A stretch of 64,000 nucleotides of DNA, taken from IMG/VR virus record IMGVR_UViG_2585427757_000006, one strand, 5' to 3'. How positions within the stretch are numbered: position 1 is the stretch's first letter; each line of letters starts with the position of its first letter. This stretch comes from a virus. Lineage: Duplodnaviria; Heunggongvirae; Uroviricota; Caudoviricetes. The notes beneath the pieces are model-generated. The model ran no database searches. It saw only the letters and a program-made list of their open reading frames with translations, and had not been told where the DNA came from. Positions 35,089 through 63,040 of the stretch are shown one piece after another. Both the position numbers and the translations under genes were made by a program.

Positions 35089-36429
35089 TTAGGTAACGTC
35101 TAAGATTCGCTCAATGAAGCGCATTTGTTCGAGGTTTTGTTTAACGCGAATGCTGACCCCTCCCTGCTGGTTACGAGAACCAGCAAAGTAGAGACGAGCC
35201 TCTCCTTTCGCTTCTTCTTCTTCGGTTTTGTTGATCGTTATTACCAGGTCAGCAATACGTACTTTTTCGATGTTGTCGGCGGCGTGCATCATTGTGGCAA
35301 CTTCTGACGCGCCACCTTCACGGTTTGTCTGCGATGCCGTGATCCCAGCAACGTTATGCTTGTCATAAAGAGCACGTAAATCGGTGTAGATACTACGAAT
35401 GTTAGCGCGATCATCACGAAGGTCATAACTGGCACGCATCAAATCTGCGTAGTCGACAACAACCATATCAGGCACCATGCCATTGGCTTTCATGCTGTTA
35501 AGCATACGGTCCAGATCTGCCGGTGACATACTTCCTGACGGACGCTCAACAACCCACAAACTACCAATCCCCTTCGTGGCTCCCAACTCTGCCAACTTAC
35601 GATGAACCTCATCGCGCCGTTCAACCAGCTTGGACATTTCCGTCTCCGACAATCTTGCATCAAAACGGTCGGATAAAATGGTGGTGTGAACCTCCAGCGA
35701 GAGATACAGAACATTGTAGCCAGCAAGCGTTGCGTTTATGGAAAACTCACCCATTGCGGTCGATTTACCGGATTTAGCGAACCCCATGAAGAGCACCATT
35801 TCACGCTTCGCCCAGCCTTTTTGGTACAGCAACCTATCGAGCAGAGGGAGTCCAGTTGTAATGCTGTTTGGCACATACTCCTCTGAAGCCTCATATTCAC
35901 GCGCTTTCAATCGCTCACTTGCGGAGGTGTAGTAGTCATAGATTCCGGTCGCTTCGTTCGATCCAATCTGCTGAACCTTGGCCATGATTGCCATCGCCCC
36001 CTGAAAGTCGCCCTTCTCTTTCAGTTCAGCAGCCTTAATCAGAGCATCATCAAACGCTACGCTTTTTGCGAAGGTTGATACCTGGTCAACCATGTACGAG
36101 GTATCGGACAATTTTTCTGCAAGGATGCGCTTAAACGCAGCAACAACATCGGCGAATAGTTCCTCACGGATGGTCTTATCGCGTTTAGCACGTTTAAGCA
36201 TATCCAGAATCGCAGATGAAGAAGGCGCGCTCTTGTACATACGGTAATAGCCCGAAACCATATTAACCAATATGGCATTGGCCGCATTGGCAAATTGGCT
36301 AGGCACAACCAGATCTCCCGCACGAGTAAGAAACTCGTGATCACGACAAAAATATGCCGTCAGTCTGTTCTGGAAATCTTCATCAAACTCTTCGGACAGC
36401 CCGCGTCCTGTATGGCAAAGTTCGGTCAT
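35089..36429 (-). CDS. replicative DNA helicase (DnaB-like)
   Basis: RecA-fold C-terminal domain with Walker A MGFAKSGKSTAMG and Walker B region MVVVDYADLM. Confidence 0.85.
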   Translation of the reverse strand: MTELCHTGRGLSEEFDEDFQNRLTAYFCRDHEFLTRAGDLVVPSQFANAANAILVNMVSGYYRMYKSAPSSSAILDMLKRAKRDKTIREELFADVVAAFKRILAEKLSDTSYMVDQVSTFAKSVAFDDALIKAAELKEKGDFQGAMAIMAKVQQIGSNEATGIYDYYTSASERLKAREYEASEEYVPNSITTGLPLLDRLLYQKGWAKREMVLFMGFAKSGKSTAMGEFSINATLAGYNVLYLSLEVHTTILSDRFDARLSETEMSKLVERRDEVHRKLAELGATKGIGSLWVVERPSGSMSPADLDRMLNSMKANGMVPDMVVVDYADLMRASYDLRDDRANIRSIYTDLRALYDKHNVAGITASQTNREGGASEVATMMHAADNIEKVRIADLVITINKTEEEEAKGEARLYFAGSRNQQGGVSIRVKQNLEQMRFIERILDVT

Positions 36430-36472
36430 GTGCTTTCCTTTGTTTTTTAAACAAATTGTTTTCTAGTATTAG

Positions 36473-37213
36473 TTAATTAGATAGGGGATCAATAAACCGC
36501 CGTGCTTCTTCCAGTTCTTCTGGAAAGTGGGCGGAAATAAGGCGCTCTGGAACGATTTCCATTAGCCAGATAGCGGAGAAAATTGCGCGTATGCGCTTGC
36601 TGCGAGGGATGGTGCGCAAACGCTCCAGAATCCACTCAAAATAGCTTTCCTGAATCGGGTTGAACTGCATGTCTCCCATATGCTTAAAGCTAACAAGAGA
36701 GTCATCCAGACGGGTTGTTGCGCGTCTGGCTAATTTCTCTTCAAATATCTCAATCAGTTCTGGCTGCCACAAATGCTGTGGGCGCGGCAGCTTGTCCCAC
36801 AGCCGTCGTGCAGCTGCGGAAAGAACGGTGGAGATAAAGTAGTCGTATGAGCAGCAATAGCGATCCGCAAACTGGCGTGCTTTCCATAGCGACGTTTTAT
36901 TGGCAGTCGACAACTCCTGATAAGGCAGGCGTTTTAACCCGGTGGTGAACGGAGCTGTTTCAAAGTGTTCGCGACCGTGCGTCAGCATGATATTTGAGTA
37001 CTGACGTTTGTATGCCTCCGTAAAAAGGCAGGTGGCCATGAGAGGATGCATGTCGCGGTAATCAAACCACTTCGTCTCGAAGAGTTCAGCCTCGTCTTTG
37101 CAGCGCGACAAACCAATGTTTTCAGCAACCCACTTGTCCATAACAGCGGTATTCCACTCTGTCATGAAGTCGTACTGGTTGTTGTCGATGGTATCGAAAA
37201 AGATTTGGCTCAT
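36473..37213 (-). CDS. hypothetical protein (~246 aa) immediately upstream of helicase
   Basis: ORF track; likely ATG at 37213 with AGGTGA Shine-Dalgarno; dyad motif just upstream. Confidence 0.5.
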   Translation of the reverse strand: MSQIFFDTIDNNQYDFMTEWNTAVMDKWVAENIGLSRCKDEAELFETKWFDYRDMHPLMATCLFTEAYKRQYSNIMLTHGREHFETAPFTTGLKRLPYQELSTANKTSLWKARQFADRYCCSYDYFISTVLSAAARRLWDKLPRPQHLWQPELIEIFEEKLARRATTRLDDSLVSFKHMGDMQFNPIQESYFEWILERLRTIPRSKRIRAIFSAIWLMEIVPERLISAHFPEELEEARRFIDPLSN

Positions 37214-37327
37214 GTGGCTCACCTGGTAGGTAGTTACTTACTTATCACAATGAGCGGATGATAGCGACTGGTGGCAGTTTTTGGAAGTGGAAACAGAAGG
37301 GAGTTGTTCTGGTGGGTGTCTTTAAAA

Positions 37328-37382
37328 GACCTGCTTCCGTATATATATATACTAAGATACTTATTATATACGGAAGCAGGTC
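37328..37382. terminator. 18-bp perfect inverted repeat hairpin (GACCTGCTTCCGTATATA / TATATACGGAAGCAGGTC), 19-nt loop
   Basis: Lies 23 nt downstream of the DUF2971-like gene stop; loop contains a TAAGATACTTAT dyad-like core. Confidence 0.6.
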
Positions 37383-37404
37383 ATAATTGTTGATACTACC
37401 AATA

Positions 37405-38160
37405 CTAGTATCCAAGAAAATCAGTATCTTTCTCTAATCTTATTTTTTCCAGCTTATACGATCCTGGAGGGCACTTCATTTTGTAGATTTCGATACCTGA
37501 ATCAAATAGTTGATGAACATAATTTTGAAGTTGACTGCTAGCCTTACAACCTATTGTTATTTCCTTAATTAAGGATTTATCAAATAATTTCACGCCACAA
37601 TTCTCGGTTACGATTCTAACCTCCTCTTCATATTCCCAGACATCGCTTTTATTTAGGCAAAGAGCCGCTGCAATCTCTTTAGCTGAGTCGGTAAAAAAAT
37701 TTACAACCGGAACATCAGAGGAATATTTGACCTCACCGCGAACAAAAAAAACATCATCAAACGCATTTATAAAACCATCATCAAATCCGATGCAAAAACC
37801 AGAGTGAGAATGCGCATAATGCGACCACATAAGATAATTATCTGGTCTTTTTGTCAAACAAATAACTCCCCGACACTGCAGAAAAGTTGTTCTAATCATA
37901 TAGTTATCAAAACTGCGACTATGTTCTGTTTGACTCAATAACCAGCGTTCAAATTCATCATTGTGATGATTAGGCCAAAGCTCAAAAAATCTTTTCTTAA
38001 TGGCGTCTATATCAGCATCATAATCAAAATTAACTTTAAACTCGGCAGGATCGTTGAAATCATTCGGACGAGTTGCTCGAATTTTCCCATCTTCTAAGTA
38101 ATACTTTAAATACTTTATTGTGTCTTCCGGGACGCTACTTCCAACATATTTGTAAAGCAT
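37405..38160 (-). CDS. DUF2971-like protein (~251 aa), AT-rich cargo gene
   Basis: FNDPAEF and LMWSHYAHSHSGFCIGF match what I recall as DUF2971 hallmarks; likely start MLYKY at 38160; flanked by strong hairpins. Confidence 0.5.
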   Translation of the reverse strand: MLYKYVGSSVPEDTIKYLKYYLEDGKIRATRPNDFNDPAEFKVNFDYDADIDAIKKRFFELWPNHHNDEFERWLLSQTEHSRSFDNYMIRTTFLQCRGVICLTKRPDNYLMWSHYAHSHSGFCIGFDDGFINAFDDVFFVRGEVKYSSDVPVVNFFTDSAKEIAAALCLNKSDVWEYEEEVRIVTENCGVKLFDKSLIKEITIGCKASSQLQNYVHQLFDSGIEIYKMKCPPGSYKLEKIRLEKDTDFLGY

Positions 38161-38174
38161 AAATATACCTTTTA

Positions 38175-38202
38175 AGAGAAGGCGTCTAATCACGCCTTCT
38201 CT
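38175..38202. terminator. hairpin AGAGAAGGCGT-ctaatc-ACGCCTTCTCT
   Basis: 11-bp perfect stem directly after the parG-like stop. Confidence 0.55.
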
Positions 38203-38204
38203 TA

Positions 38205-38564
38205 TCAACCTTTCTTCATCAACTCTCGTTTAATTTCATCGGTACGCATCGTGACATCGGCAGCTGTGATTGCCTCGTTAAGTTTCACGATGTCCTCGAT
38301 TTCCTGCGGTGACTTCTCTGCCAGATGGAAAATGGCTGCGCGAATCACGTCAGAACGGGTGAATTTCTCGAAGCGAGGGATGAACTTCATCATCTCCAGC
38401 AGTTCGAAGTATTCGTCCTCCAGTGACATTGTGCGGCTTTTAATTTTCTCTTTGCCACGAGTCGGGCGTCCCTGTGGTCTGACTGGTTGGCGCAAAGGAG
38501 TTGTGTTCTTAGCCGGTGCATCAGGCTCTTTGCGCTTTGCTAGGTCACCCATTTTCATGGACAT
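38205..38564 (-). CDS. ParG-like small partition protein (putative ribbon-helix-helix centromere binder)
   Basis: 119 aa, basic N-terminal tail; start overlaps the ParA stop. Confidence 0.5.
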   Translation of the reverse strand: MSMKMGDLAKRKEPDAPAKNTTPLRQPVRPQGRPTRGKEKIKSRTMSLEDEYFELLEMMKFIPRFEKFTRSDVIRAAIFHLAEKSPQEIEDIVKLNEAITAADVTMRTDEIKRELMKKG

Positions 38565-39232
38565 TATTCTTCTTCCTCCAGACTCAACAGATAATCTACA
38601 AATTCTTCAAACTCGGCTTCCGCCTTTTTGTCGCGCTCGCTACCGGTCATTTCAAAGATAGAACGACCAGACTCTTCCGCATCATCATAGACGTTGCGGT
38701 TATATAGATTGACTGGCGCAGACTCGATTCCAAACGTCTCAACAATCTCTTTAGCCGCCAGAATGCGAGACACTTGTGATGGCAAAGCCGGGCACTGGTT
38801 CATGACCGCGCGGACCTTCACTTTATCGTTTACATTGCGAACATTGTCGATAATAGGATCGATGTCACGCAGAGATTTCAAATCACGACGCTTAGGACGA
38901 AGCGGGATAATGATAACGTCGGCCATCAGCATCGCTTGTCGCTGAATTTCGGAGTCGAAGCCACCAGCATCTACCACTACAAACTCAGCTCTACCCTGAA
39001 GCGATTTTAGGTGCTTAATGATGTCATCCTGAACGTATGCAAAAGGAATCAGCTCAAGGTCTTCGTTCTGTCGACGGTCTTCACACCAGCTCGTTGTCGT
39101 GCGCTGAATATCTATATCGGTAATATAAACCTTCTTCTTCTTTTTGACTTTCAGGCAAACGGCAATTTGCTGGGCAACGGTGGATTTGCCAGGCCCGCCC
39201 TTTGTGCCGCCAACCACAAAGATCTTGGTCAT
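38564..39232 (-). CDS. parA: ParA-family partition ATPase (small type)
   Basis: Deviant Walker A GGTKGGPGKSTVA; 222 aa with no N-terminal HTH. Confidence 0.85.
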   Translation of the reverse strand: MTKIFVVGGTKGGPGKSTVAQQIAVCLKVKKKKKVYITDIDIQRTTTSWCEDRRQNEDLELIPFAYVQDDIIKHLKSLQGRAEFVVVDAGGFDSEIQRQAMLMADVIIIPLRPKRRDLKSLRDIDPIIDNVRNVNDKVKVRAVMNQCPALPSQVSRILAAKEIVETFGIESAPVNLYNRNVYDDAEESGRSIFEMTGSERDKKAEAEFEEFVDYLLSLEEEE

Positions 39233-39550
39233 TGGAGAGTTCCCTTTGCGTATATAATTATCGTCTGAAACAACTTGTTTTCTTATATGTGATATAGCCT
39301 AAATGCCTACGGCTGCGGTGTAAAGGTTAAATGGTAGGTTGTGATTAACAATTGGCAAACATAGCTTGTATTTGTCTGTTGAAAAAAGTAACAATGACCT
39401 CTATATTACAAGTACGGTGATATGCCGTACACAATTTGATAATGCACACGTAATGGGCTATAGCCTTTTAAAGTAATTTTTGAGTCGAAAACTCAGTTTG
39501 AACAGAGGAGATTGATGGCCTTCCTACATCACGGCCATCAGGAGGAATAC

Positions 39551-39820
39551 ATGTCAGCACTAAAAAAGCAGCGCATCGATTTGAGATTAACCGATGACGA
39601 TAAAAGCATCATCGAGGAAGCTGCCGCAATGTCTAACCAGAGCATTACTCAGTTTATGGTTAGCAGTGCATCTGAACGTGCCGTGAAAGTTATAGAGCAA
39701 CACCGTAGACTAGTTCTGAATGAAGAATCCTGGAATCTGGTTATGGACGCTATAAGCAATCCTCCGGCACCGAACGACAAGCTGAAACGAGCTGCTGATC
39801 GTCTGAAAAGCATGGAGTAG
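39551..39820 (+). CDS. TacA-like (DUF1778) ribbon-helix-helix antitoxin
   Basis: AGGAGG Shine-Dalgarno before the ATG at 39551; C-terminal NPPAPNDKL as in DUF1778 antitoxins; immediately upstream of a GNAT gene. Confidence 0.7.
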   Translation: MSALKKQRIDLRLTDDDKSIIEEAAAMSNQSITQFMVSSASERAVKVIEQHRRLVLNEESWNLVMDAISNPPAPNDKLKRAADRLKSME

Positions 39821-39827
39821 TTTACTC

Positions 39828-40349
39828 GTGGATAATATAAAGATAGAAATTTTCTCTGGAGAGAAAGATTATGATTTGAATGGTTTTGATTGCGGTGAAG
39901 AATCACTAAATGCCTTTTTAACCAACCACTTAAAAAGGCAGCATGAGGGAAAAATTCTTCGCGCTTATGTGCTTTGCACGAAAGAAGGCAGACCAAAAGT
40001 GTTAGGGTATTACACTTTGTCAGGTAGCTGCTTTGAAAAGGAGTCCTTACCTTCAAGAAGCCAGCAAAAGAAGGTACCTTATCGGAATGTTCCAAGTGTT
40101 ACTTTGGGTAGGCTGGCTTTGGACAAGTCCCTTCAAGGTCAAGGATTTGGCTCAATGCTTGTAACACATGCAATGCGCGTTGTGTACAATGCATCTCTTG
40201 CTGTAGGCATTCATGGACTTTTCGTTGAGGCGTTAAATGACAAAGCCAAGGCGTTTTATAAAAGTTTAGACTTTATCCAGCTGGTTGGTAACAACGAGCG
40301 TTCTTTGTTCTATCCTACAAAATCTATCGAAAAATTGTTCGAAGAATAA
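39828..40349 (+). CDS. GNAT-family acetyltransferase toxin (TacT/AtaT-like)
   Basis: Acetyl-CoA binding motif GRLALDKSLQGQGFGSMLV; 173 aa; GTG start 8 nt after antitoxin stop. Confidence 0.75.
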   Translation: MDNIKIEIFSGEKDYDLNGFDCGEESLNAFLTNHLKRQHEGKILRAYVLCTKEGRPKVLGYYTLSGSCFEKESLPSRSQQKKVPYRNVPSVTLGRLALDKSLQGQGFGSMLVTHAMRVVYNASLAVGIHGLFVEALNDKAKAFYKSLDFIQLVGNNERSLFYPTKSIEKLFEE

Positions 40350-40380
40350 TGTACTCCCCTCAAGTGAGGGGAACTTCGCA

Positions 40381-40596
40381 TCACCAACCGCAAACTCTCT
40401 CTCCCATCGTATTGTGAAAAAGGATTTGGCGTTCGGTTTCTTCGGTCATCACATCATTATTGCTGATATAGATAGGCCCAGCTCCATCGCAGAACAATAC
40501 GCTGGCGGTTTGTGGTTTAATGACGCACCCACTTATCATACAACTCACGATGAACGGCAGAAGCATCTTTCTGACGTATTTTATTGCTCGTCTCAT
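40381..40596 (-). CDS. outer-membrane spanin lipoprotein (Rz1-like), overlapping the i-spanin gene in another frame
   Basis: Lipobox MISGC; ~80 bp overlap with the i-spanin ORF. Confidence 0.5.
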   Translation of the reverse strand: MRRAIKYVRKMLLPFIVSCMISGCVIKPQTASVLFCDGAGPIYISNNDVMTEETERQILFHNTMGERVCGW

Positions 40597-40768
40597 TCAC
40601 CACTTCCACTGTGCTTTGAAGTCGTTTTCTGTCTTCCTGTTTTGCCTTCTCTTCCATTGCTCGTCGCGCCGCATTCCCGCCCATCGTGTAAGCGCCGACA
40701 AGAACGAAAAGAACGGCAGCCAGCGTAATCAAAGCAACTTTTAGCTTTGTCATCAGGCTGCCTAGCAT
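40517..40768 (-). CDS. inner-membrane spanin (Rz-like)
   Basis: N-terminal TM helix ALITLAAVLFVLVGAY then charged coiled-coil region. Confidence 0.55.
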   Translation of the reverse strand: MLGSLMTKLKVALITLAAVLFVLVGAYTMGGNAARRAMEEKAKQEDRKRLQSTVEVVNETSNKIRQKDASAVHRELYDKWVRH

Positions 40769-40769
40769 A

Positions 40770-41489
40770 TTAGACCATCCCTTTCTGGTGTTTTCTTACC
40801 TGCGACCAGGCAATGAATCCGGCCACAACAATAGTGGCAATACCGAAGATGATGCGTACTGTATCCCCGCTAGAGATATGACCTTGTGCTTTATCCATAG
40901 CAGCGGAAACCTGCGGCATAACATCGGCCAGCTGCGCCAGACCAATACCTGCTGTAACAGTTGCGCCTGCGGTTTCTTTAGTTACAGGAACAGCCTTCAC
41001 GGTTTTCACCGGCTTAACAACGCCAGCTCGACGCAGACCTTCCTCAATAACTTCTGCCGCATACCAGGTGTTCAGCGTTTTTAGCGGACCTCGCCCATTC
41101 TCATGGCGAATGATTGCCTCAACCAAAGGTCGAAGAATGTCGTAATCATGCAGATCGATAATCATGTCTGCGGTTACACCAACGGCTTTAGACACCTCAT
41201 TAATGTAGGCGTCAGTATTGTTTTCATTCGGCGGTGCCCAACGTTCAATAACTTCACGAATGGTATCGATACTTGAGCCGTCTTTTGCGCGACGTTTGTC
41301 GTGGTAGGTAATTAGAGTCACCGCCAGCGCACGAATCCCCCAAACAGGGTCTTTAAACGTGCAAAAGCGCGGTTCGTCTGGATTCGCAACCAGACCTTGC
41401 CACGGTGATCCTTTATCAAGATTACCGGGGTTATTATTACGAATGCCTCTCGGAGTCTTCATCCTTGATCTCCTGTTATTGCAGTCCAC
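40770..41489 (-). CDS. putative endolysin / peptidoglycan hydrolase with a C-terminal hydrophobic segment
   Basis: Directly upstream of the spanin pair; N-terminal GIRNNNPGNL motif; C-terminal IIFGIATIVVAGFIAW. Confidence 0.4.
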   Translation of the reverse strand: MDCNNRRSRMKTPRGIRNNNPGNLDKGSPWQGLVANPDEPRFCTFKDPVWGIRALAVTLITYHDKRRAKDGSSIDTIREVIERWAPPNENNTDAYINEVSKAVGVTADMIIDLHDYDILRPLVEAIIRHENGRGPLKTLNTWYAAEVIEEGLRRAGVVKPVKTVKAVPVTKETAGATVTAGIGLAQLADVMPQVSAAMDKAQGHISSGDTVRIIFGIATIVVAGFIAWSQVRKHQKGMV

Positions 41490-62223: not shown

Positions 62224-63040
62224 TCATACGGTTGTTGATGTAACTGACCAGCAAGCGCCAGGTACTACGAGCCACATGCACGTTTGCAGCTTTACCGGTA
62301 CGGTACATGTTGGTTGTTTCACCGATGGACTCTGACAAAATGCCATCCTCTCGTGCTGCGGCTACATCATTGCCATTTGCGATCTCACACGCTTCGTTGA
62401 CAACGGCAAGCATCAACGCTTCTTTGAAGTAGTCAGGGAACTCTTCAAACTTCTCCTGCGTCATCTTTTCCCAATCGACTAAATCATGCCGGTACGCTCC
62501 ATCTGCTCCCCACGGAATGTCATACACATTCAGCATATTTTGAGGGCGATCGTATCGGTCAAAGTCGATACGTAGAATTTTGCGGATTGAGAACGGTAAA
62601 GTTTTAATTCGTCTGGTAGCCTCAATGAGACGCTTGCGCATTAAGCCTTCACCATCCGACAGCAAAGTGTCCCCATTCAGCATATCGATCGCCTGCATTT
62701 GAGCATCAGCGACAGTTGCAAACGACTGTTCTGGTATCGACAGTTCAAAACTATTCAGCAGAACATACATTTGCCGCTCTTCATGCGTCAGACCCGATGC
62801 AACAGCCTTCACAATGACGTACCGCAGATCTCGCTCTTTCTCAGAGAGCTGGTTATATTCAGCCGACACGACAACCGGAATCGACATTTGACCGCTGGTA
62901 ATTTCTAGCGGCTCGCCCTCAACGAGAATAGCCCCGGGGCTGTCCTTTACTGTGTAGGTAGCAGATTCGATATCCAGCACGTTGAAGGCAAATGAAAGGG
63001 AAACAGCTTCACCGCTACGATACGAGTCGATCTGCGCCAT
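62207..63040 (-). CDS. hypothetical structural protein (277 aa)
   Basis: ORF track; within morphogenesis module. Confidence 0.45.
   Translation of the reverse strand: MAQIDSYRSGEAVSLSFAFNVLDIESATYTVKDSPGAILVEGEPLEITSGQMSIPVVVSAEYNQLSEKERDLRYVIVKAVASGLTHEERQMYVLLNSFELSIPEQSFATVADAQMQAIDMLNGDTLLSDGEGLMRKRLIEATRRIKTLPFSIRKILRIDFDRYDRPQNMLNVYDIPWGADGAYRHDLVDWEKMTQEKFEEFPDYFKEALMLAVVNEACEIANGNDVAAAREDGILSESIGETTNMYRTGKAANVHVARSTWRLLVSYINNRMIVRRA

What the first reader, a model, noticed from the sequence alone, without database searches (positions are those of the whole stretch)
37328..38202. AT-rich DUF2971-like gene isolated between two strong hairpins next to the partition locus
The ~251-aa ORF is markedly AT-rich and carries FNDPAEF and LMWSHYAHSHSGFCIGF, which I recall as DUF2971 hallmarks. 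It is bracketed by an 11-bp-stem hairpin (38175-38202) and an 18-bp perfect inverted repeat (37328-37382). A compositionally foreign, self-contained gene in a phage element is a typical defence or abortive-infection candidate.
Basis: partly seen in the sequence, partly recalled or inferred. Interest (0 to 1): 0.65.

Follow-up and report, generated by a model that had tools for sequence, protein, structure and literature searches.

The report
Candidate anti-phage enzyme gene on phage-plasmid
This AT-rich gene on an SSU5-like phage-plasmid of E. coli encodes a small enzyme-like protein of a family already listed as a candidate anti-phage defence. It sits in a swappable cargo slot next to the plasmid partition genes, so it is a good but not new kind of defence candidate.

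Summary
A 251-aa ORF (37405-38160, minus strand, GC 0.36 against 0.46 for the window) carries FNDPAEF and LMWSHYAHSHSGFCIGF. It lies between the only two perfect hairpins in the 64-kb window.

The window is an SSU5-like phage-plasmid, 98.7% identical to Escherichia phage Cyrano/pLF82. The gene fills a variable slot between the parA/parG-like operon and a conserved backbone terminator. In sibling elements the same slot holds:
- PD-T4-3;
- a KAP NTPase (PDC-S49);
- an unknown 352-aa gene;
- other DUF2971 lineages, only 40-55% identical, while backbone neighbours are 82-99% identical.

Relatives sit in a P2 tail-gene slot, next to a prophage repressor, and in a restriction island. Published LF82 transcriptomes show the ortholog expressed in the lysogen.

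The gene is not self-contained. The left hairpin belongs to the backbone, and no promoter was found, so read-through from the par operon is likely.

Verdict: a well-supported, untested single-gene defence candidate and a new member of a known kind. Interest is moderate.

The parts
37405..38160 (-). DUF2971 / PDC-S31 gene, 251 aa. Predicted ADP-ribosyltransferase-fold protein with motifs F35-N-D-P38, W112-S-H-Y115 and W175-x-Y-E178-x-E180-x-R182.
38173..38204 (-). Perfect 13-bp stem with a 6-nt loop. It starts directly after the TGA stop (38205-38207) of the parG-like gene and ends 12 nt before the DUF2971 ATG. There is no clean U-tract. Read as a leaky terminator or RNA-stabilising stem at the 3' end of the par operon (inferred).
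   Evidence: Every sibling element has a different but strong hairpin, with a related GGCG...CGCC core, at the same place after the parG-like stop.
37328..37382 (-). Conserved backbone hairpin: 18-bp perfect stem followed by UUUU on the minus strand. Read as the intrinsic terminator that closes the cargo slot.
   Evidence: Homology with siblings carrying other cargo runs up to window 37384-37385, so the hairpin is included in the conserved part. It is present in 9 loci, with 94% of cells paired and no significant covariation.
37386..38204 (.). Variable cargo cassette. This is the part that differs between sibling phage-plasmids.
   Evidence: BLAST breakpoints at 37384/37385 and 38203-38207 against PhiR41_1, CMS-2020a and SSU5. 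This allele is in 21 of 5426 complete E. coli genomes, always on plasmids of about 105-113 kb.
38205..38564 (-). 119-aa backbone protein (phrog_5111). Probably the ParG-like ribbon-helix-helix partner of ParA. It is not cargo-specific.
   Evidence: 92-99% identical across elements with different cargo. Weak match to the aCcr1 ribbon-helix-helix family, E 2e-4. No Pfam family and no RelE/ParE NCBIfam match.
38564..39232 (-). ParA-family partition ATPase, 222 aa.
   Evidence: NCBIfam ParA_partition E 1.9e-33. phrog_164 E 4e-51.
39331..39358 (-). The only sigma-70-like site on the minus strand upstream of the gene (TTGCCA-16-TACCAT). Candidate promoter of a parA-parG-DUF2971 transcript.
   Evidence: This is a consensus match only.
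36473..37222 (-). Conserved backbone gene of unknown function (phrog_2500), next to the DnaB-like helicase. It marks the left boundary of the slot.
   Evidence: 83-87% identical across siblings.

Best explanation
The gene is a single-gene anti-phage (abortive-infection type) defence candidate carried as swappable cargo by an SSU5-like phage-plasmid.

Shown:
- The protein belongs to DUF2971 / PADLOC PDC-S31.
- It is confidently predicted to adopt an ADP-ribosyltransferase fold, closest to the DNA ADP-ribosyltransferase DarT.
- It occupies a variable slot, bounded by the stop codon of the parG-like gene and a conserved terminator hairpin. In sibling elements that slot holds known or candidate defence genes.
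- Its ortholog in E. coli LF82 is transcribed in the lysogen.

Inferred:
- It is transcribed by read-through from the parA-parG operon across a leaky hairpin, so it is made at a low constitutive level while the element is a plasmid.
- On infection by another phage the enzyme uses NAD+ to ADP-ribosylate a target. Nucleic acid is more likely than protein, given the DarT and Tpt1 resemblance.
- The probable catalytic residues are Y115, E178 and E180.
- The modification blocks phage (and host) gene expression or replication and so protects the clone that carries the phage-plasmid.
- No adjacent antitoxin exists, so activity must be gated within the protein or by a phage-derived trigger.
For: Family: Pfam DUF2971 E 3.7e-10. 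PADLOC PDC-S31 E 1.1e-40 over residues 1-239. phrog_1762 E 5e-68.

Slot: breakpoints are. Alternative cargo is PD-T4-3 (E 1.6e-23), PDC-S49/KAP NTPase (E 2.8e-22), and five DUF2971 lineages. DUF2971 alleles are 40-55% identical while ParA is 82-91%, the ParG-like protein 92-99% and DnaB 93%. PD-T4-3 in SSU5-group elements is also reported independently (bioRxiv 10.1101/2025.09.12.675607).

Other contexts: between the tail-fibre assembly and sheath genes of P2-like prophages. Next to a CI-like repressor of a Shewanella prophage. Between a type IIG restriction enzyme and GmrSD in Algoriphagus. In an integrase island with CbtA/CbeA.

Expression: CYRAN_30 (99.2% identical) is 6-fold above prophage background in lysogenic LF82, and its upstream neighbour CYRAN_29 is 9-fold (PMC9928086).

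Precedent: Aristaios is a single DUF2971 gene from a Lactococcus plasmid. It gives abortive-type protection and affects phage transcription (PMC11381338, PMC13064643). An SSU5-like Klebsiella plasmid lowers plating of three lytic phages 10-100 fold, with the responsible gene unidentified (PMC8969562).
Against: No experiment has tested this gene or any enterobacterial relative. PDC systems are explicitly untested candidates.

The usual motif-I His or Arg is not conserved.

A toxic enzyme without an antitoxin needs a gating mechanism that I could not identify.

Read-through transcription is inferred from the lack of a promoter match and a weak terminator. It has not been measured.

A direct sequence comparison with Aristaios was not possible.
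Confidence: 0.6

Rival explanations
1. The protein serves competition between mobile elements rather than classical anti-phage defence. It would exclude incoming plasmids or related phage-plasmids, for instance by modifying entering single-stranded DNA, to protect the resident element's niche.
For: It is attached to the plasmid partition operon and expressed in the plasmid state. Its nearest structural relatives are DarT enzymes; DarT is reported to ADP-ribosylate thymidine on ssDNA (PMC12522546). Loss of an SSU5-like Klebsiella plasmid raised transformation efficiency as well as phage plating (PMC8969562).
Against: The co-occupants of the slot (PD-T4-3) and of the other contexts (P2 slot, restriction island) are anti-phage systems. 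Aristaios was shown to act against phages. The Klebsiella phenotype is not assigned to any gene.
Confidence: 0.15
2. It is a phage-side effector, either anti-defence or host take-over. It would be an ADP-ribosyltransferase that modifies host proteins for the benefit of the phage-plasmid, in the manner of T4 Alt, ModA and ModB.
Against: It is expressed in the lysogen as part of a plasmid-maintenance operon, not in an early lytic module. It is dispensable: PhiR41_1, a related phage whose record lists E. coli K-12 MG1655 as host, lacks it, and an IS1-truncated copy persists in one plasmid. The family was picked up embedded in bacterial BREX, DISARM or type I restriction loci. It also occurs in a chromosomal restriction island.
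Confidence: 0.1
3. It is the toxin of a plasmid-addiction (post-segregational killing) module, with the upstream 119-aa protein or an unseen RNA as antitoxin.
For: The Cyrano record labels the 119-aa neighbour 'RelE/ParE putative toxin'. The location beside the partition genes is typical for stability modules. The DarT-like fold is that of a known toxin.
Against: The 119-aa protein is backbone. It is 92-99% identical whatever the cargo, including beside PD-T4-3 and KAP NTPase, and it has no RelE/ParE match. No macrodomain or other antitoxin-like gene lies in the cassette. The element already carries a TacA/TacT-like module 1.3 kb away.
Confidence: 0.05
4. It is a decaying or functionless passenger left in a recombination-prone intergenic region.
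For: It is rare (21 of 5426 E. coli genomes). One copy is disrupted by IS1.
Against: The ORF is intact and at least 99% identical in the copies found. The catalytic-looking motifs are invariant across 64 diverse homologues. The gene is transcribed. The family has 37,663 cluster representatives, mostly full-length stand-alone proteins.
Confidence: 0.05

Closest known systems
PADLOC PDC-S31 (single-gene 'phage defence candidate' built from DUF2971 proteins found embedded in BREX, DISARM or type I restriction loci)
   Same: Full-length HMM match, E 1.1e-40, residues 1-239 against profile positions 8-255 of 259. Stand-alone protein of about 250 aa with no conserved partner gene.
   Different: PDC-S31 is an untested prediction. 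Here the gene sits in a phage-plasmid cargo slot joined to a partition operon, not inside a restriction or BREX locus.
Aristaios (Lactococcus plasmid pUCCL641, 316 aa; validated single-gene abortive-type system)
   Different: 65 residues shorter. Gram-negative phage-plasmid host. No phenotype is known here.
DarT of DarTG toxin-antitoxin systems (ssDNA thymidine or guanosine ADP-ribosyltransferase)
   Different: No DarT HMM match. No DarG macrodomain antitoxin next door. Large helical insert between the first two core strands (residues 51-96). Motif I is N-D-P rather than a conserved His.
Defence hotspots of temperate phages and satellites (P2 tin/old and tail-gene slots, P4 hotspot)
   Same: A fixed position between conserved core genes where unrelated defence genes replace each other. 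There are no transposon or integron signatures, and exchange is by flanking homology. A 36%-identical family member sits in a P2 tail-gene slot.
   Different: The slot here belongs to the SSU5 phage-plasmid group and is joined to the 3' end of the partition operon. I found no paper describing it as a hotspot. The large clinical survey lists the systems but not their location.

Membership tests
Pfam DUF2971 (PF11185) | HMM score above the curated gathering threshold | tested here: met
   41.4 bits against a 22-bit cut-off, E 3.7e-10, residues 111-183 covering profile positions 1-89 of 89. All 64 aligned homologues also match.
Pfam DUF2971 (PF11185) | Conserved tyrosine (motif II) and ExE (motif III), as described for the family in PMC12522546 | tested here: met
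   Y115 and E178 are invariant and E180 is at least 90% conserved in 64 sequences. The motifs are present in all 11 compared alleles.
PADLOC PDC-S31 | Full-length match to a PDC-S31 model | tested here: met
   PDLC04990 E 1.1e-40. Three further PDC-S31 models match with E from 1.7e-33 to 1.5e-5.
PADLOC PDC-S31 | Single-gene system with no obligatory partner | tested here: met
   The cassette holds one gene. Both neighbours are backbone genes kept whatever the cargo.
PADLOC PDC-S31 | Anti-phage activity | not testable with these tools
   PDC systems are '145 untested phage defence candidates'. A full-text search for PDC-S31 found no paper.
Aristaios | DUF2971 domain plus predicted ADP-ribosyltransferase fold in a single plasmid gene | tested here: met
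   Aristaios is described in PMC11381338.
Aristaios | Direct sequence homology to the Aristaios protein (pUCCL641_199) | not tested
   The sequence is not held in the paper's text or supplements. Lengths differ (316 against 251 aa).
Aristaios | Abortive-infection phenotype with a block of phage transcription | not testable with these tools
   Needs experiments. Reported for Aristaios in PMC13064643.
DarT / DarTG | Match to DarT sequence models | tested here: not met
   No DarT hit in PADLOC at E up to 1 or in Pfam for any of 64 members. No PDB sequence hit with the family profile.
DarT / DarTG | Adjacent DarG macrodomain antitoxin | tested here: not met
   The neighbours are the ParG-like 119-aa protein and a phrog_2500 backbone protein. 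Neither has a macrodomain.
DarT / DarTG | DarT-like three-dimensional fold | tested here: met
ADP-ribosyltransferase superfamily (H-Y-E clade) | Motif I His (or Arg) at the end of the first core strand | tested here: inconclusive
   No invariant His or Arg near strand 26-30. The invariant residues there are N36 D37 P38. PMC12522546 also notes that the His is poorly conserved. Invariant H114 and H119 lie in the motif II region.
ADP-ribosyltransferase superfamily (H-Y-E clade) | Catalytic Glu at the start of the fifth core strand, lining the NAD+ pocket | tested here: inconclusive
   E178-x-E180 precede strand 180-185 in the model. No residue-level superposition on a solved enzyme could be made with the tools.
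ADP-ribosyltransferase superfamily (H-Y-E clade) | NAD+-dependent ADP-ribosyl transfer | not testable with these tools
   Needs a biochemical assay.
Intrinsic (Rho-independent) terminator: left hairpin 37328-37382 | Stable G+C-containing stem followed by a U-tract on the transcribed strand | tested here: met
   18-bp stem, dG -31.5 kcal/mol, followed by UUUU on the minus strand. The stem and T-run are conserved in 9 loci. The simple scanner missed it because its loop limit is 8 nt.
Intrinsic (Rho-independent) terminator: right hairpin 38173-38204 | Stable stem followed by a U-tract | tested here: not met
   The stem is strong (dG -21.9 kcal/mol) but is followed by AAAAGG on the minus strand and by UCAACC on the plus strand. 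The Salmonella counterpart does have a T-run. Read as a weak or leaky terminator (inference).

The most novel reading that the evidence does not exclude
DUF2971 proteins may be antitoxin-less, DarT-like nucleic-acid ADP-ribosyltransferases whose activity is gated directly by a phage cue.

The position just after the par operon of SSU5-group phage-plasmids would then be a previously undescribed defence hotspot. The cargo would be expressed by leaky read-through of the partition operon. At least five deeply diverged DUF2971 lineages would alternate there with PD-T4-3, a KAP NTPase and an unannotated 352-aa gene.

This would include the very common Salmonella ~106.7-kb (pHCM2-sized) plasmids, in a group where DefenseFinder reports no defence system for the pHCM2-like S. 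Typhi elements.
Probability: 0.3. Interest if true: 0.6.

Novelty: new member of a known kind. Interest (0 to 1): 0.4.

Why it matters
DUF2971 is a very large family. A profile of this subfamily finds 37,663 cluster representatives. The literature reports it in about 6,000 species. Only one member has been validated (Aristaios) and no biochemistry exists.

The E. coli allele sits on a tractable, inducible phage-plasmid (Cyrano/pLF82 of the Crohn's-associated strain LF82) and is already known to be transcribed in the lysogen. That makes it a convenient entry point for three questions: whether these proteins defend enterobacteria, what they modify, and how a toxin-like enzyme is controlled without an antitoxin.

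The slot itself matters for genomic surveillance. SSU5-group phage-plasmids are common in Klebsiella, Salmonella, Shigella sonnei and E. coli. DefenseFinder-based surveys miss this gene family, so the defence content of these elements is probably underestimated.

Tried and rejected
2. Cross-family HMM signal. Scanning all 64 homologues against Pfam at E up to 1 gave no DarT, AbiGi or Tox-ART hits.
3. Mobile-element explanation for the cassette. There are no flanking direct repeats or target-site duplications. There is no integron-like site: the hairpins are perfect stems without attC features, and the integron-in-phage paper does not concern this locus. Rejected in favour of exchange by flanking homology.
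4. Known RNA family for the hairpins. Rfam gave only generic microRNA-precursor matches far below threshold. Rejected.
5. Covariation support for the left hairpin. The stem is too conserved: 10 of 15 pairs never vary, and the result is not distinguishable from shuffles. The structure is conserved but not proven by covariation.
6. The 119-aa neighbour as a RelE/ParE toxin, as annotated in the Cyrano record. No support in Pfam, NCBIfam or PDB sequences. Rejected.
7. An own promoter for the gene. No minus-strand sigma-70-like site lies between 38160 and 39330.
8. Obtaining the Aristaios sequence and the Kp1604 p2 plasmid record. Neither was available.
9. PADLOC and Pfam on cargo of the second slot, upstream of parA, in siblings. 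No hits.

Full report
**1. What is in the sequence**

The ORF runs on the minus strand from ATG 38160 to the stop at 37405 and encodes 251 aa. The mechanical ORF list, and the Cyrano phage record, extend it to a TTG at 38208 (267 aa). Homologues begin at MLYKY and K4/Y5 are nearly invariant, so ATG 38160 is the start.

FNDPAEF lies at residues 35-41 and LMWSHYAHSHSGFCIGF at residues 110-126. GC is 0.356, against 0.462 for the window and 0.48-0.49 for the two flanking genes.

Both hairpins are real.
- Left: 37328-37345 pairs with 37365-37382. The stem is 18 nt and perfect, dG -31.5 kcal/mol, z -8.8.
- Right: 38173-38185 pairs with 38192-38204. The stem is 13 nt and perfect, not 11, dG -21.9 kcal/mol, z -6.6.

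Only seven inverted repeats in the whole window pass the same filter. These two are the only perfect ones.

**2. What element this is**

Window 36400-39300 is 98.7% identical over its full length to Escherichia phage Cyrano. It matches, at a lower coverage of 71% and 84% identity, Salmonella phage SSU5. The Cyrano paper equates Cyrano with plasmid pLF82 of E. coli LF82 (PMC9928086).

The gene order on the minus strand is: lysis genes, ParA, a 119-aa protein, this gene, a 241/249-aa backbone gene, a DnaB-like helicase, a primase. ParA is supported by NCBIfam (E 1.9e-33) and phrog_164.

The 119-aa protein has only a weak ribbon-helix-helix signal (aCcr1 family, E 2e-4). I call it ParG-like by inference. 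The 'RelE/ParE toxin' label in the Cyrano record has no support.

**3. The gene sits in a cargo slot and the hairpins mark its edges**

BLAST of the region against sibling elements shows that homology stops at window 37384/37385 on the left and resumes at 38203-38207 on the right. The cassette is therefore about 37386-38204.

The 18-bp hairpin lies inside the conserved left flank. It is present, followed by a T-run on the minus strand, in all nine loci examined, whatever their cargo. Ninety-four per cent of cells pair. The stem hardly varies, so covariation is not significant. I read it as the backbone terminator that closes the slot.

The 13-bp hairpin lies inside the variable part. It starts directly after the TGA of the ParG-like gene and ends 12 nt before the ATG. 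Every sibling has some strong hairpin at that spot, with a related GGCG...CGCC core. In the window it lacks a U-tract. In the Salmonella version it has one.

No sigma-70-like site lies between the gene and the parA upstream region. No direct repeats flank the cassette.

The gene is therefore not a self-contained unit. Most likely it is the third gene of a parA-parG-cargo transcript, reached by read-through of a leaky terminator. This is inferred, not measured.

**4. What else occupies the slot**

| Element | Occupant of the slot | Evidence |
|---|---|---|
| PhiR41_1 and 136 PLSDB plasmids | 255-aa GIY-YIG protein, PADLOC PD-T4-3 (E 1.6e-23) | |
| CMS-2020a, Klebsiella pKP124-2, 23 plasmids | 567-587-aa KAP NTPase, PDC-S49 | |
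| 139 plasmids | 352-aa protein with no family match except phrog_22329 | |
| SSU5 | DUF2971 gene plus two unknown genes | |

DUF2971 genes fill the same slot in SSU5, in Klebsiella pHKP0018.3, in a metagenomic relative, in Salmonella contigs of about 106.7 kb and in another Klebsiella lineage.

These alleles are only 40-55% identical to the window protein. The neighbours are far closer: ParA 82-91%, the ParG-like protein 92-99%, the 241-aa protein 83-87%, DnaB 93%.

In PLSDB, 618 plasmids carry a homologue, 317 of them from Klebsiella. The window's own allele is in 26 plasmids and in 21 of 5426 complete E. coli genomes. It is always on plasmids of about 105-113 kb and never on chromosomes. 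One copy is truncated by IS1.

Low GC is shared by most alleles (0.36-0.42) but not by the SSU5/pHKP0018.3 allele (0.48).

**5. What the protein is**

Family matches are Pfam DUF2971 at 41.4 bits against a 22-bit cut-off, PADLOC PDC-S31 at E 1.1e-40 over the full length, and phrog_1762 at E 5e-68. NCBIfam gives nothing.

A profile of 64 homologues finds 37,663 cluster representatives at E up to 1e-3 and 8,474 at E up to 1e-30. The best are stand-alone proteins of about 240-290 aa matched end to end.

Invariant residues are N36 D37 P38, L110 W112 S113 H114 Y115 H119 G121, K171 W175 Y177 E178 R182 and G204. E180 is nearly invariant.

Foldseek and sequence-profile searches of solved structures found nothing significant. 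No member hits the DarT or AbiGi models.

This agrees with a published analysis that places DUF2971 in the H-Y-E clade near DarT. That analysis reports a poorly conserved motif-I His, a strictly conserved Tyr, an ExE motif and large helical inserts (PMC12522546). The model shows such an insert at residues 51-96. I could not superpose residues on a solved enzyme, so the catalytic roles of Y115, E178 and E180 are inferred.

**6. Evidence on function**

- PDC-S31 is one of 145 untested candidates. They were chosen because members are embedded in BREX, DISARM or type I restriction loci (bioRxiv 10.1101/2024.01.29.577857).
- Aristaios, a single DUF2971 gene on a Lactococcus plasmid, protects against phages in an abortive manner. 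It affects phage transcription (PMC11381338, PMC13064643).
- Homologues sit in other places where prophages keep defence genes:
  - between the tail-fibre assembly and sheath genes of P2-like prophages. By my own knowledge this is the Z/fun position, and a tail-gene hotspot in P2 is documented in PMC13586616;
  - next to the CI-like repressor of a Shewanella prophage;
  - between a type IIG restriction enzyme and GmrSD in Algoriphagus;
  - in an integrase island with CbtA/CbeA in Serratia.
- In LF82 lysogens the ortholog CYRAN_30 is transcribed 6-fold above prophage background. The upstream CYRAN_29 is 9-fold above it (PMC9928086). This fits co-transcription with partial attenuation.
- An SSU5-like Klebsiella plasmid lowers plating of three lytic phages by 10-100 fold and lowers transformation. 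The responsible gene is unknown (PMC8969562).

**7. Most likely mechanism and rivals**

*Best reading (confidence about 0.6).* The gene is a lysogen-expressed, single-protein defence. Its ADP-ribosyltransferase-fold enzyme is activated on infection and modifies a nucleic-acid or protein target, stopping phage development at the cost of the cell.
- Shown: family, fold, slot, expression.
- Inferred: read-through transcription, NAD+ chemistry, target, gating.

*Rivals.*
- Exclusion of other mobile DNA, 0.15.
- A phage-side host-modifying or anti-defence enzyme, 0.1. This is disfavoured by lysogenic expression, dispensability and chromosomal defence-island contexts.
- An addiction toxin, 0.05. The supposed partner is a backbone gene.
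- A functionless passenger, 0.05. The motifs are invariant and the gene is transcribed.

**8. Comparison with known systems, and novelty**

The gene is a member of Pfam DUF2971 and of PADLOC PDC-S31 by their HMM criteria. It works like, and may be related to, Aristaios, but direct homology was not tested.

It is not a DarT/DarTG member. It has no DarT HMM match and no DarG partner, although DarT is its nearest solved fold.

The gene would be flagged automatically by PADLOC, so the finding is a new member of a known kind.

Two things may be less known: the par-linked slot as a defence hotspot of SSU5-group phage-plasmids, and the repeated occupation of that slot by deeply diverged DUF2971 lineages. 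The large clinical survey lists PD-T4-3 and other systems in these elements with DefenseFinder. It does not mention a hotspot or DUF2971. A full-text search for PDC-S31 found no paper.

**9. Verdict**

Interest is moderate (0.4): a clean, testable candidate in a tractable element, but of a kind already catalogued.

Noticed in passing
window 39233-40770 (TacA-like 39512-39820 +, GNAT toxin 39828-40349 +): A second variable slot lies on the other side of the par operon, between parA and the lysis genes. In the window it holds a TacA/TacT-type toxin-antitoxin pair (TacA1 E 8.6e-26 plus a GNAT acetyltransferase). SSU5, PhiR41_1 and two Klebsiella plasmids carry unrelated genes there with no Pfam or PADLOC match.
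   Followed up: partly
L005 1604-2662 (+), E. coli pHH107-1; also L018 4826-5881 (-): A 352-aa protein (phrog_22329) with no Pfam, PADLOC or other match is an alternative occupant of the same slot. It is in 139 PLSDB plasmids across Klebsiella, Salmonella, Escherichia and Citrobacter. A 351-aa protein, presumably the same family (not compared), sits beside a DUF2971 gene in Salmonella contigs of about 106.7 kb. By its position it is an unannotated defence candidate.
   Followed up: partly
L018/L019 4001-4756 (protein P0035), Salmonella contigs of 106.7 kb: This DUF2971 allele is listed in 3492 blocks of the assembly collection. It sits in the same par-adjacent slot of Salmonella plasmids about the size of pHCM2. 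A DefenseFinder survey reports no defence systems in pHCM2-like S. Typhi elements, so this candidate may be systematically overlooked. Identity with pHCM2 itself was not checked.
   Followed up: partly
L002 3880-4924 (SSU5_036 and SSU5_035): In phage SSU5 two extra genes of unknown function (136 and 214 aa, no Pfam or PADLOC hit) lie between the ParG-like gene and the DUF2971 gene. The slot can therefore hold several cargo genes.
   Followed up: no
window 38205-38564 (= CYRAN_29) and 37405-38208 (= CYRAN_30): Two likely annotation problems in the Cyrano record. CYRAN_29 is labelled 'RelE/ParE putative toxin' but has no such match, and it is a conserved ParA partner with a weak ribbon-helix-helix signal. 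CYRAN_30 is annotated from the upstream TTG (267 aa), which overlaps the hairpin, whereas homologues and RefSeq start at the ATG (251 aa).
   Followed up: yes
L017 971-2152 (E. coli MMC-J-0050 plasmid unnamed3): One of the 21 E. coli copies is cut by an IS1A insertion. This leaves a 151-aa N-terminal fragment without the YExE motif. It is a natural knock-out and shows the gene is dispensable for plasmid maintenance.
   Followed up: yes
window 37339/37371 against L001 (Cyrano): Within the left hairpin, the window has C-G where Cyrano has U-A at the same stem position (CCG/CGG against CTG/CAG). Other relatives show the G-U intermediate. This is suggestive of stem maintenance but is not statistically significant on nine sequences.
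   Followed up: yes
L002 3012-3770 against L006 2369-3127: The DUF2971 alleles of Salmonella phage SSU5 and of K. pneumoniae plasmid pHKP0018.3 are 98% identical in protein. This suggests a recent transfer of the cassette, or of the whole region, between genera. The backbone identity between these two elements was not measured.
   Followed up: no
L016 3186-3995 and 5001-5762: A chromosomal locus next to proBA carries two DUF2971 paralogues (269 and 253 aa) separated by one small gene.
   Followed up: no
window 24738-24770, 25623-25654, 26219-26270, 62925-62946: Four other near-palindromes or hairpins (16-31 nt arms, 74-94% complementary) turned up in the whole-window scan. They were not examined.
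   Followed up: no
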